DNA from: a virus
Taxonomy: Duplodnaviria; Caudoviricetes
Length of the DNA: 64,000 nt
Reading direction: 5' to 3' (one strand)
Virus record (IMG/VR): IMGVR_UViG_3300049172_000088
Span: 19,686 to 83,685 of that record
Shown here: piece after piece, positions 20,605-21,638 of the stretch
How the letters are laid out: the number at the start of each line of letters is the position of its first letter
Numbering within the stretch: the first letter of the stretch is position 1
Notes under the pieces: model-generated
The model's database searches: none
What the model was told of the DNA's origin: nothing
What the model saw: the letters and a program-made list of their open reading frames with translations, nothing else
Position numbers and translations under genes: made by a program

Positions 20605-21638
20605 GCCTGCCATGACGGGCCATGCCGAGACGTGCGGAGCCGCAACAGGACGAACCGCGCCTGCCCTGCCAAACCCAGCCGTGCCTAGTCCCGCCGTGAC
20701 ATGCCGGACCGCACCACACCGAGCCATTCCTGCCACGCCAAGCGACGCCAAGACCCGCCCTGACAAGACGAGCCGTGCCGAGCCATGCCTGCCGTGCCGC
20801 GCGATGCTGTGACGGACCTAGACGGACCGCGCCAAGACCCGACTGCCGGGCCACGCCTTGACTAGCCGAGACCAGACCCGCCATGTCCTGCCTGCCGTGC
20901 CATGCGGAACCTAGCCGGGACACACCACAACAAGCCCCGCCTTGCCGCGCCTGACAAGCCGGGCCGCACCATGCGGAGCCGAGCGGAGACTTGCCACGCC
21001 ACACCGTGCCTGCCGGACCTGGCCATGACTGGCCGCGCCTCGCCGGACCTCGCCTCGCCACGCCTGCCGAACCACGCCGTGCCCGAACGTGACAAGCCCT
21101 GCACAGAACAACCGCGCCTGCCACGCCAAGCCACGCCAAGCCCGACCGGGACCTGACTGGACATGCCGCGCCATGCCATGACTGCCAAAGCTGGCCGTAC
21201 GGCGCCACGCCGTGACTAGCCCTGACCCGCCAAACCGGGCCTGCCGAACCGTGCGATGCCGAACCAAGCCCGGACACGCCCCGCCGAACCCCGCCTGCCA
21301 CGCGAAGCCATGACCAGCCGCGCCGCGACGAGCCCTGCGAAGCCATGCCTGCCAAGCCAGGCCACACCCTGCCTGGCCGAACCGCGACCTGCCACTCCGC
21401 GCCTGCCAAGACAAGCCAAGCCCCGCCGAGCCGAGACCCGCCGGACCGAACCACGCCTGCCATGACGGGCCAAGCCGTGACCTGCCGGGACTTGCCCAGC
21501 CTTGCCTGCCTCGCCATGCCTGAACTAGCCCAGCCCGAACATGCCCCACCCCGCCAGGACTGCCTCACCACACCAAGCGGAACCCCGCCGAGCCCGGCCA
21601 CATCTCGCCTGGACCGGCCAAGCCTGACCATGCCTGCC
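20605..21638 (-). ncRNA. GGY-NN periodic guide-RNA-like array: 18 units, 19 GGCAGGC-type delimiters
   Basis: Delimiters start at 20605, 20659, 20728, 20787, 20841, 20890, 20949, 21008, 21062, 21116, 21180, 21239, 21293, 21347, 21401, 21455, 21504, 21558, 21632; all spacings (49-74) equal 5n+4; units are a constant triplet plus a variable dinucleotide. Confidence 0.9.

What the first reader, a model, noticed from the sequence alone, without database searches (positions are those of the whole stretch)
20605..21638. 1-kb array with a strict 5-nt GGY-NN code, punctuated into 18 guide-like units
Seen: on the minus strand the region is a near-constant triplet (mostly GGC, also GGT/GTC/CGC) alternating with a freely variable dinucleotide. 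GGCAGGC/GGCAGTC delimiters shift phase by 4, and all 18 spacings are 5n+4 (54,69,59,54,49,59,59,54,54,64,59,54,54,54,54,49,54,74), giving 9-14 dinucleotides per unit. No two units carry the same dinucleotide string, so information is stored only in the NN positions. The array sits in the Cro-controlled early operon, directly upstream of a RAMP-like gene, and ends in a hairpin (20554-20585). Inference: a processed multi-guide ncRNA in which each protomer grips a GGY and presents an NN. From memory this matches the recently reported VIPR (Viral Interference Programmable Repeat) architecture; I cannot verify that report here.
Basis: partly seen in the sequence, partly recalled or inferred. Interest (0 to 1): 0.97.

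Follow-up and report, generated by a model that had tools for sequence, protein, structure and literature searches.

The report
Staggered VIPR guide-RNA array in actinophage
This 1-kb stretch is a bank of 18 short guide RNAs for VIPR, a phage RNA-guided DNA-silencing system first described in 2026; it is a new member of that known family, and one of its guides is aimed at a bacterial defence gene.

Summary
On the minus strand, 21638-20607 is a gap-free run of GGY-NN pentamers in 18 units of 9-14 variable dinucleotides. Each unit closes with GGCAG, whose last G starts the next unit. VIPR is published (bioRxiv 10.64898/2026.04.26.720920). The 210-aa protein downstream (19889-20521) hits only the solved SUSP1 Vipr in the PDB, keeps its five GGY-contact residues and folds like Csm3/Cas7. 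A partner gene (19470-19892) follows it. At least 84 of 89 related loci carry such an array on the vipr strand, and GGCAG follows 78% of units. This matches the 'staggered, 1-nt overlapping' arrays the paper shows but did not confirm by RNA-seq, so this is a new member of a known kind.

Three additions go beyond the papers.
- Guide 3 matches, by the published 1-nt-skip rule, one site in the DinG helicase gene of host pPIWI-RE defence operons. The match is 18/18 or 17/18 in 8 of 121 genomes, with none elsewhere, which suggests anti-defence use.
- Rival phages' guides match this phage's own vipr, vap and cro-like genes.
- Arrays lying upstream of a gene keep one reading frame open (15 of 18 against 6 expected).

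Targets of the other 17 guides were not found.

The parts
20607..21638 (-). Staggered vrRNA array: 18 units of (GGY-NN)x9-14, each closed by GGCAG whose last G is the first G of the next unit
21458..21506 (-). Unit/guide 3 (NN = AA TG AA CC AG AC TT CC AT). Predicted target is a conserved M-G-N-V-L-G-F-Q-F/Y codon run in the host pPIWI-RE DinG helicase gene
20554..20585 (-). GC-rich hairpin between the array end and the vipr ribosome-binding site. The structure, but not the sequence, recurs in relatives with upstream arrays
19889..20521 (-). vipr: 210-aa RAMP (Cas7-like) protein, homologue of SUSP1 Vipr
19470..19892 (-). vap-like accessory gene (140 aa, phrog_15946). Its GTG start overlaps the vipr stop (GTGA). 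It lies next to vipr in 84 of the 89 related loci
19406..19455 (-). Solo vrRNA unit (9 NN + GGCAG) just downstream of vap
33644..33708 (+). Solo vrRNA unit (12 NN + GGCAG) far from the vipr locus
21639..21760 (-). Small zinc-ribbon leader ORF. Its GTG start overlaps the stop of the cro-like gene, and its frame stays open through the whole array and into vipr
21757..22029 (-). cro-like HTH_31 gene heading the operon. Positions 21899-21930 match guide 1 of the Nonomuraea prophage L089 at 20/22, with skip bases at codon third positions
22036..22065 (-). Promoter-like site (TTGAAA-18-TAAACT) in front of the cro-like gene
   Evidence: consensus match only
22207..22695 (+). Divergent HTH_31 gene, the cI-like candidate repressor
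24011..25489 (-). Serine integrase, which marks the element as a temperate phage
19986..20014 (+). Site inside this phage's vipr matched 18/20 by guide 4 of viral contig L005. The same guide matches the vipr genes of about 40 loci but not its own
19777..19805 (+). Site inside this phage's vap matched 17/20 by guide 23 of L089. The same guide matches vap in 21 loci

Best explanation
The region is the guide-RNA array of a VIPR system carried by a temperate actinophage. It is transcribed from the cro-side early promoter, together with the vipr and vap genes behind it. By homology with SUSP1 VIPR, Vipr protomers bind one GGY each and polymerise along a unit until the phase slip at GGCAG ends the filament. 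This would give 18 ribonucleoproteins (21 with the three solo units). In each, only the NN dinucleotides pair with double-stranded DNA, skipping every third target base, and the bound complex blocks transcription. The skipped base falls on codon third positions, so a guide follows a conserved peptide motif through synonymous drift. At least one guide (unit 3) is aimed at the DinG helicase gene of host pPIWI-RE defence operons. Guides of related phages are aimed at each other's vipr, vap and cro-like genes, including those of this phage. Shown here: the anatomy, protein homology, fold, residue conservation, co-occurrence across relatives, enrichment of the 1-nt-skip rule, and the specificity of guide 3. 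Inferred: transcription, processing at GGCAG, filament assembly, and silencing.
For: VIPR and its rules are published.

Protein. In the PDB, phmmer and a 29-sequence profile hit only 36pp 'SUSP1 Vipr protein' (E 6.7e-5 and 1.6e-5). The SUSP1 GGY contacts H17, R138, D177, W178 and R179 align to H35, R146, E185, W186 and R187, which are invariant or nearly so in 29 homologues. The H17/H35 pairing rests on a weak alignment stretch. The AF2 model has pLDDT 82. Its best Foldseek matches are Csm3/Cas7 chains, including 6ifn_E, the chain used to discover Vipr (E about 1e-5, TM 0.45-0.5).

Array. At least 84 of 89 related loci have a same-strand GGYNN array beside vipr. The vap homologue is adjacent in 84 of the 89. 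GGCAG follows 499 of 637 units.

Targeting. On 501 guides against 0.97 Mb, skip 1 gives 20 guides at 85% or more against 7 for shuffled guides. Skips 0, 2 and 3 give 6-7 against 7-9. Guide 3 matches PprDinG at 18/18 in three genomes and 17/18 in six. With one mismatch allowed it hits 8 sites in 121 genomes, all in PprDinG, with none for the reversed control. A different guide in L014 overlaps the site and extends it by three further matching NN. There are no self-targets.
Against: No RNA or binding data exist for this locus or for any staggered array; the paper confirmed only the ribozyme and single-guide architectures. Identity to the characterised Vipr is low and significant only over the C-terminal 55 residues. 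There is no conserved 3' tail or pseudoknot like that of type II vrRNAs. Targets were found for only 1 of the 18 array guides, and the 3 solo guides had none above control. One frame is open through the whole array and in frame with vipr, so translation cannot be excluded. Silencing a defence gene after infection would not remove protein already made.
Confidence: 0.93

Rival explanations
1. The array is protein-coding: a low-complexity Gly/Arg/Ala/Trp-rich linker that fuses the zinc-ribbon peptide to Vipr as one 623-aa protein (ORF 19889-21760).
For: One sense frame has 0 stops against 3 and 4 in the others. Only about 4% of NN-shuffled arrays have an open frame. The frame runs into vipr without a stop. 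The equivalent array in Gordonia phage UmaThurman is annotated as CDS gp40.
Against: A period of 5 with units of 5n+4 puts the same motif in all three frames, so no peptide repeat results. The NN positions are near-random and differ between close relatives: 14 of 18 units are not shared with the 92%-identical L089. Arrays at the end of the operon are not open more often than chance, 15 of 57 against 13.1 expected. The array sits before vipr, between vipr and vap, or after vap in different relatives. NN strings match foreign genes by the 1-nt-skip rule.
Confidence: 0.03
2. The array is a DNA-level element, such as an array of protein-binding iterons, a centromere or replication origin, or a slippage-prone GGC microsatellite, and only happens to lie next to a RAMP-like gene.
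For: It is G-rich, strand-asymmetric, periodic DNA near the phage regulatory region.
Against: Slippage homogenises repeats, but here two of every five positions have near-maximal entropy. The array is always on the coding strand of vipr in at least 84 of 89 loci, whatever its position. The unit size of 9-14 repeats equals the published vrRNA size of 9-16.
Confidence: 0.02
3. It is a true VIPR array, but the match of guide 3 to pPIWI-RE DinG is fortuitous or incidental. All guides serve phage-phage or phage-satellite conflict, as in the published systems.
For: The published targets are satellites, prophages and other VIPRs. Other multi-locus targets in this clade are vipr, vap and a cro-like gene. 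The first hit had a chance expectation of about 0.04 in 22 Mb, my estimate assuming equal base frequencies. The homologous sites are not independent of each other. The pPIWI-RE operon could itself ride on a mobile island.
Against: The match is perfect, 18/18, in three diverged homologues (38-82% protein identity over the region). All variation falls on skipped bases or the F/Y codon. There are 8 hits and no off-target in about 850 Mb, and none in 2.9 million viral contigs. The guide is kept in three phages, and an independent overlapping guide in a fourth extends the match by 6 of 6 bases. The operon in T. rubra lies between housekeeping genes and an N6 methylase, not in a prophage.
Confidence: 0.2

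Closest known systems
VIPR staggered vrRNA arrays (fig. S18 of bioRxiv 10.64898/2026.04.26.720920)
   Same: Both have GGY/NN pentamer repeats next to vipr plus one accessory gene in a phage. Successive guides overlap by one nucleotide, so the end of one marks the start of the next. Here this appears as GGCAG|GC..., a -1 phase slip.
   Different: I could not see the figure, its example locus or its type assignment, so identity of clade is not established. The paper gives no RNA-seq for this architecture. The conserved GGCAG end, the open reading frame and the pPIWI-RE target do not appear in the text of the three held VIPR papers.
Type II VIPR of Escherichia phage SUSP1 and the Pseudomonas fulva prophage (characterised; PDB 36pp, 36PK)
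   Same: It shares a homologous Vipr with conserved GGY-contact residues, 9-16 repeats per guide, a vipr-vap two-gene core, and the 1-nt-skip, wobble-aligned target logic. It also shares guides against rivals' vipr genes.
   Different: SUSP1 has four separate vrRNAs of about 100 nt, each with a tail of about 40 nt forming a pseudoknot. Here 18 guides abut with no tail. Vipr similarity is only E about 1e-5. The vap here (phrog_15946) has no recognisable winged-helix or HTH match in my searches. The host is an actinomycete and the phage is temperate.
Class 1 CRISPR-Cas backbone (Cas7/Csm3 filament on crRNA)
   Same: It shares the RAMP fold, with best structural matches to Csm3. One protomer binds per fixed RNA step, a thumb flips bases out at a regular interval, and many guides are made from one array transcript.
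   Different: There are no CRISPR repeats, no cas1/cas2/cas6 and no spacers of contiguous sequence. The step is 5 nt with 3 bases sequestered rather than 6 nt with 1. Guides are not known to be acquired adaptively.
Phage-encoded RNA-based counter-defence (anti-CRISPR RNAs, phage CRISPR arrays against host islands such as the ICP1/PLE case, recalled from my own knowledge)
   Same: A phage carries programmable guides directed at a host or island-borne anti-phage system.
   Different: Here the effector is Vipr. The predicted action is transcriptional block of a pPIWI-RE operon rather than cleavage or decoy binding. This is untested.

Membership tests
VIPR | Vipr protein homologous to a characterised Vipr | tested here: met
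   The only PDB sequence hit is 36pp_D 'SUSP1 Vipr protein', at E 6.7e-5 for the single sequence and 1.6e-5 for the profile. It also matches phrog_4652 at E 1e-41.
VIPR | RAMP fold (RRM core, G-loop, thumb) | tested here: met
   The AF2 model has pLDDT 82. Seventy-four Foldseek matches have E<=1e-3, and the top ones are all Csm3/Cas7 chains, including 6ifn_E. A glycine-rich loop GGMGVGVGEWRP is invariant. Thumb geometry was not examined residue by residue.
VIPR | Residues that read GGY in SUSP1 (H17, R138, D177, W178, R179) | tested here: met
   They align to H35, R146, E185, W186 and R187, all invariant or at least 90% conserved. D to E is conservative. The H17/H35 pair lies in a low-scoring alignment stretch.
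VIPR | Tandem GGY-NN (YNNGG) repeats, about 9-16 per guide, with hypervariable NN, beside vipr | tested here: met
   There are 18 units of 9-14 NN. GGY positions are 76-99% conserved and NN positions are near uniform. The same holds in at least 84 of 89 relatives.
VIPR | Accessory vap gene in a minimal two-gene locus | tested here: met
   A 140-aa gene is coupled to vipr by a GTGA overlap and is adjacent in 84 of the 89 related loci (86 of 91 sequences searched). Which of vap1-6 it is could not be determined.
VIPR | Targets obey the 1-nt-skip rule with skip bases at codon wobble positions | tested here: met
   Enrichment is seen only for skip 1. Guide 3 against PprDinG, L089 guide 1 against the cro-like gene and L005 guide 4 against vipr are all wobble-aligned.
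VIPR | vrRNAs are expressed, processed and co-purify with Vipr; the complex represses transcription | not testable with these tools
   No RNA-seq or biochemistry was available. The paper did not confirm staggered arrays experimentally.
VIPR type II (SUSP1-like) | Each vrRNA carries a conserved 3' tail of about 40 nt with a pseudoknot | tested here: not met
   Units abut directly and the only constant element is GGCAG. A single hairpin follows the whole array. It is therefore not type II, and the type within I-VII could not be assigned.
CRISPR-Cas | CRISPR repeat-spacer array and cas1/cas2 adaptation genes | tested here: not met
   No Rfam family, CRISPR direct repeats included, matched in 19000-23000 at E<=1. 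Neighbouring genes are HTH regulators, an integrase and unknowns. The whole contig was not searched for cas genes.

The most novel reading that the evidence does not exclude
A temperate actinophage uses its VIPR array partly as a programmable counter-defence. Guide 3 is conserved in three phages and overlapped by an independent guide in a fourth. It directs Vipr to a conserved codon run in the DinG helicase gene of host pPIWI-RE operons. These are predicted RNA-guided, R-loop-dependent restriction systems, and the block would stop transcription of the helicase and of the PIWI gene downstream. Separately, arrays that lie upstream of vipr or vap are kept translatable in one frame that ends at, or runs into, the next gene. 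This suggests that ribosome transit through the guide array preserves downstream expression, and that Vipr binding to its own array RNA could feed back on vipr translation.
Probability: 0.55. Interest if true: 0.8.

Novelty: new member of a known kind. Interest (0 to 1): 0.6.

Why it matters
The identification itself is not new, because VIPR was published in 2026 and staggered arrays are mentioned there. Its value is that it puts a very large actinobacterial clade on that map: more than 3000 homologues, with arrays of 2 to more than 50 guides. It also yields three testable points absent from the main text of the three held papers.

1. A conserved GGCAG end defines each guide in tail-less arrays. 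This gives a concrete prediction for the unconfirmed processing step.
2. One phage guide has genome-wide specificity for a host pPIWI-RE defence gene. This would extend VIPR from phage-phage conflict to silencing of host immunity.
3. Selection keeps one frame open through arrays that precede a gene. This may explain why such arrays are annotated as hypothetical proteins, as with UmaThurman gp40.

Cultured Gordonia terrae and Mycobacterium smegmatis phages carry the same architecture, so all three points can be tested in standard laboratory hosts.

Tried and rejected
**Target searches that found nothing**
- Self-targets were sought in the 83.7-kb contig with skips 0-3. All 18 guides scored at the level of shuffled controls.
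- The 18 guides were scanned against 89 related loci, and none exceeded control.
- Exact scans of IMG/VR for guides 17, 9, 6, 11 and 3 gave 0 hits each. The scan for guide 1 failed on a busy machine.
- Guide 1 (up to 3 mismatches) in 301 genomes, guide 8 (up to 2) and guide 17 (up to 3) in 101 genomes each, and guides 6 and 11 (up to 2) in the Nonomuraea and Thermoactinospora genomes all gave none.
- Guides 2, 4, 5, 7, 10, 12-16 and 18 and the three solo units were never searched in genomes or collections beyond the held loci.
- Guide 11 matches an HTH-like gene on the phage's own contig at 16/20, which is at control level and was dropped.

**Other checks**
- vap function: there is no Pfam hit. 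The model is confident (pLDDT 94), but Foldseek found nothing at E<=1e-3, and the VIA-align list is filled by the 40-residue C-terminal helix. The N-terminal domain was not searched alone. Weak forkhead and RepE rows are not evidence.
- Rfam gave no family, so hammerhead-interspersed architecture is not supported here.
- The zinc-ribbon peptide matches Pfam Zn_ribbon_RanBP at only 16.6 bits against a cut-off of 27. The Trp is not kept in L089, so I do not file it as a RanBP2 finger.
- The type (I-VII) could not be assigned, because no supplementary files are held.

Full report
**1. The observation**

The minus strand of 20607-21638 is an uninterrupted run of pentamers. Identity at lag 5 is 0.50 against about 0.25 at other lags and in a control stretch. 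Cutting at the GGCAGGC/GGCAGTC marks and reading in fives gives 18 units. Their lengths are 74, 54, 49, 54, 54, 54, 54, 59, 64, 54, 54, 59, 59, 49, 54, 59, 69 and 54 nt.

Over 191 pentamers the first three positions are G (93%), G/T (76/21%) and C/T (80/19%). The last two positions are close to uniform, in DNA that is 70% G+C. A small HMM given only that pentamer profile and a resynchronisation penalty recovered the same 18 units and placed a 4-nt GGCA slip at every junction.

The slip is best read as a constant last pentamer GGC-AG whose final G is the first G of the next unit. That is the '1 nt overlapping' layout the VIPR paper calls staggered arrays. The hairpin at 20554-20585 is real (-30.7 kcal/mol, z -3.35).

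**2. What VIPR is**

Three preprints describe Viral Interference Programmable Repeat systems. They comprise a minimal RAMP protein (Vipr), usually one accessory gene (vap), and vrRNAs of 9-16 YNNGG repeats. The GGY bases are held by the protein, and the NN bases pair with double-stranded DNA while every third target base is skipped. The outcome is transcriptional silencing of satellites, prophages and rival VIPRs.

Seven types are defined. Staggered, hammerhead-interspersed and single-guide architectures are mentioned, and only the last two were confirmed by sRNA-seq.

**3. The protein**

The gene at 19889-20521 encodes 210 aa with no Pfam family but a strong match to phrog_4652. Against all PDB sequences, the only hit is chain 36pp_D, 'SUSP1 Vipr protein'. 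This holds for the single sequence (E 6.7e-5) and for a 29-member profile (E 1.6e-5).

The cryo-EM paper names H17, R138, D177, W178 and R179 as the residues that read GGY. In the HMMER alignment they fall on H35, R146, E185, W186 and R187. All are invariant or at least 90% conserved among homologues. The H17/H35 pairing rests on a weak alignment segment.

The AlphaFold model (pLDDT 82) finds type III Csm3/Cas7 chains first, among them 6ifn_E, the very query used to discover Vipr.

**4. The partner and the setting**

A 140-aa gene (19470-19892) starts at a GTG that overlaps the vipr stop. It belongs to phrog_15946 and sits next to vipr in 84 of the 89 related loci, that is 86 of the 91 sequences searched, two of which are re-fetches. 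Its model is confident, but no structural relative emerged. The match lists are dominated by its 40-residue C-terminal helix.

Upstream lie a small zinc-ribbon ORF, a cro-like HTH_31 gene with a promoter-like site, a divergent HTH_31 gene and a serine integrase. The source is a virus record of 83,685 bases. Placement in the early, cro-side operon is therefore supported by gene order. Control by Cro is inferred.

**5. Relatives**

The family is large, with more than 3000 proteins at E<=1e-3, the nearest in Nonomuraea and Thermoactinospora. I fetched 89 loci from viral contigs and genomes.

A period-5 detector and then the HMM found same-strand GGYNN arrays beside vipr in at least 84 of them. 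These have 2 to more than 50 units, including a 4-kb array in L019. The array may lie before vipr, between vipr and vap, or after vap.

GGCAG follows 499 of 637 distinct units, and 99 of 165 terminal units end in it. GGCAG is thus the constant mark of a guide's 3' end in this clade.

Only 4 of the 18 units here are shared, in collinear order, with the 92%-identical Nonomuraea prophage, and one with Thermoactinospora. Guide content therefore turns over fast.

Cultured phages have the same build. In Gordonia phage UmaThurman the six-unit array is annotated as CDS gp40, between gp39 (vipr) and gp41 (vap). Mycobacterium phage Brocalys has three units upstream of its vipr.

**6. Does this clade use the 1-nt-skip rule?**

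I scored 501 guides from all arrays against 0.97 Mb. This comprised the phage contig, the loci with arrays masked, and the PprDinG loci, which were added after the guide-3 hit and so contribute a few of the skip-1 matches. Skips of 0-3 were compared with guides whose dinucleotide order was shuffled.

| Skip | Real guides at >=85% | Shuffled at >=85% | Real at >=90% | Shuffled at >=90% |
|---|---|---|---|---|
| 1 | 20 | 7 | 6 | 1 |
| 0, 2, 3 | 6-7 | 7-9 | 1 | 0-1 |

Only skip 1 stands out.

The multi-locus hits are instructive:
- L005 guide 4 matches the vipr genes of about 40 loci, including 19986-20014 here at 18/20, but not its own.
- L025 guide 1 matches the 3' end of vipr in 11 loci.
- L089 guide 23 matches vap in 21 loci, including 19777-19805 here.
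- L089 guide 1 matches 21899-21930 in this phage's cro-like gene at 20/22.

For the two sites I checked, L005 guide 4 and L089 guide 1, the skipped bases are codon third positions. This reproduces the anti-VIPR and anti-regulator targeting in the papers. It also shows that this phage is a target as well as an attacker.

**7. A target for one of the 18 guides**

Searching guide 3, one of the guides shared with relatives, in the two host genomes gave one hit at 17/18 in Thermoactinospora rubra. It lies in frame inside a 1196-aa gene that PADLOC calls PprDinG (E 7e-276). This gene sits in a pPIWI-RE operon with PprPIWI, PprRE and PprPDDEXK, flanked by housekeeping genes and an N6 methylase. The site encodes M-G-N-V-L-G-F-Q-Y, and the skipped bases are the wobble positions.

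Homologues occur in 9 of 121 genomes of the family. At the homologous site, guide 3 matches 18/18 in three, 17/18 in five (six with T. rubra) and 14/18 in one. These proteins are only 38-82% identical over the region searched, and their third positions differ.

As a specificity control, allowing one mismatch over the same 121 genomes (about 850 Mb) gave exactly 8 hits. All were in those genes, with none for the reversed pattern. There was no exact hit in 2.9 million viral contigs.

A different guide in viral contig L014 overlaps the site and extends three further dinucleotides, all matching (15/16).

pPIWI-RE was predicted to be an RNA-dependent restriction system acting on R-loops of transcribed invading DNA (PMC3702460). 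It is a candidate, not a proven, defence. A block in the helicase gene would also stop transcription of the PIWI gene downstream. None of the three VIPR papers mentions host defence genes as targets of phage guides in the text held. Their supplementary target tables could not be read.

I put the reality of this target at about 0.8, and its use as counter-defence somewhat lower. Silencing does not remove protein already present, and the array sits in an operon expected to be off in lysogens.

**8. An unexplained regularity**

One sense frame of the array has no stop, against 3 and 4 in the other two. It begins at the GTG that overlaps the cro-like stop, encodes the zinc-ribbon peptide, and runs in frame into vipr. 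Shuffling NN among pentamers gives an open frame in about 4% of trials.

Across the relatives, arrays followed within 200 nt by vipr or vap have an open frame in 15 of 18 cases. The shuffle expectation is 6.15, and the Poisson-binomial P is 1.6e-7 if the cases are independent. Terminal arrays have one in 15 of 57 cases against 13.1 expected.

In 13 of the 15 cases, the frame ends within 5 nt of the next start codon or is in frame with the next gene. L019's 4-kb array is an exception. The papers do not mention translation or reading frames.

My reading, as inference only, is that ribosome transit is kept possible so that downstream genes escape polarity and stay translationally coupled. Vipr coating of the same RNA could then throttle its own synthesis. 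Relatedness among loci inflates the statistic, although few guides are shared among these loci.

**9. Further units**

Following leads in earlier notes of this scan, I confirmed three solo units of the same build, each ending in GGCAG. They lie at 19406-19455 (-), 33644-33708 (+) and contig 11698-11752 (-).

Solo A, solo B and array unit 1 each have one of their three best own-contig matches within about 200 nt of themselves: 14/18 at 19364, 18/24 at 33488, and 18/28 at 21669 in the zinc-ribbon ORF. Unit 1's best match anywhere is the homologous zinc-ribbon ORF of L089 at 20/28.

The scores are no better than shuffled controls. Only the positions are striking. They suggest guides linked to a resistant self-allele of their target. 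I did not test this further.

**10. Verdict**

By every sequence-level criterion I could test, it is a member of the VIPR family with the staggered architecture already sketched in the literature. It is therefore a new member of a known kind, not a new system. The additions above are the parts worth following up.

Not done: targets for 17 array guides and 3 solo guides, type assignment, any expression evidence, and a domain-level fold search of vap.

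Noticed in passing
window 19889-21760 (-); loci L003, L005, L011, L012, L016, L023-L025, L041, L081, L084, L089: Arrays that precede vipr or vap keep one frame free of stops (15 of 18 against 6.15 expected). The frame ends at, or runs into, the next gene. 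Terminal arrays do not show this (15 of 57 against 13.1 expected).
   Followed up: partly
window 21639-21760 (-); L089 about 3620-3745: A zinc-ribbon peptide of about 40 aa (CxxC...CxxC) is translationally coupled to the cro-like gene and leads straight into the array. A homologous peptide sits in the same place in the Nonomuraea prophage. The Pfam RanBP-type match is below cut-off.
   Followed up: partly
window 19406-19455 (-), 33644-33708 (+); contig 11698-11752 (-), outside the window: Three solo guide units, each ending in GGCAG, lie away from the main array. No targets were found for them.
   Followed up: partly
window 19364-19389, 33488-33522, 21669-21709: Solo A, solo B and array unit 1 each have a 64-78% skip-1 match to the phage's own gene within about 200 nt of the guide. 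The scores equal shuffled controls, but the adjacency is unlikely by chance. Each guide may be linked to an immune self-allele.
   Followed up: partly
L019 5676-9649: A viral contig carries a 4-kb array of at least 50 units between vipr and vap, the largest seen in this set.
   Followed up: no
L104 3126-3436 (Gordonia phage UmaThurman, record 33354-33664): The annotated hypothetical protein gp40 is a six-unit GGYNN array rather than a conventional gene. vipr is gp39 and vap is gp41. About 30 cultured Mycobacterium and Gordonia phages carry vipr homologues.
   Followed up: partly
L093 5225-14622 (Thermoactinospora rubra contig 48): A complete four-gene pPIWI-RE operon (PDDEXK, RE, DinG, PIWI) lies beside an N6 DNA methylase gene. 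The same genome holds the L081 VIPR prophage, whose guide 5 matches the DinG site at 16/20.
   Followed up: partly
window 18426-18935 (-): The ORF has a weak Lamin Tail Domain match (E 2e-5, below cut-off). It lies between the VIPR genes and an HTH_17 excisionase-like gene at 18117-18314.
   Followed up: no
spacers after upstream arrays in L003, L005, L006, L012, L040, L081, L089: A strong GC-rich hairpin with a different sequence in each lineage separates the end of an upstream array from the vipr ribosome-binding site. It could be a terminator/attenuator or an RNA-end protector.
   Followed up: partly
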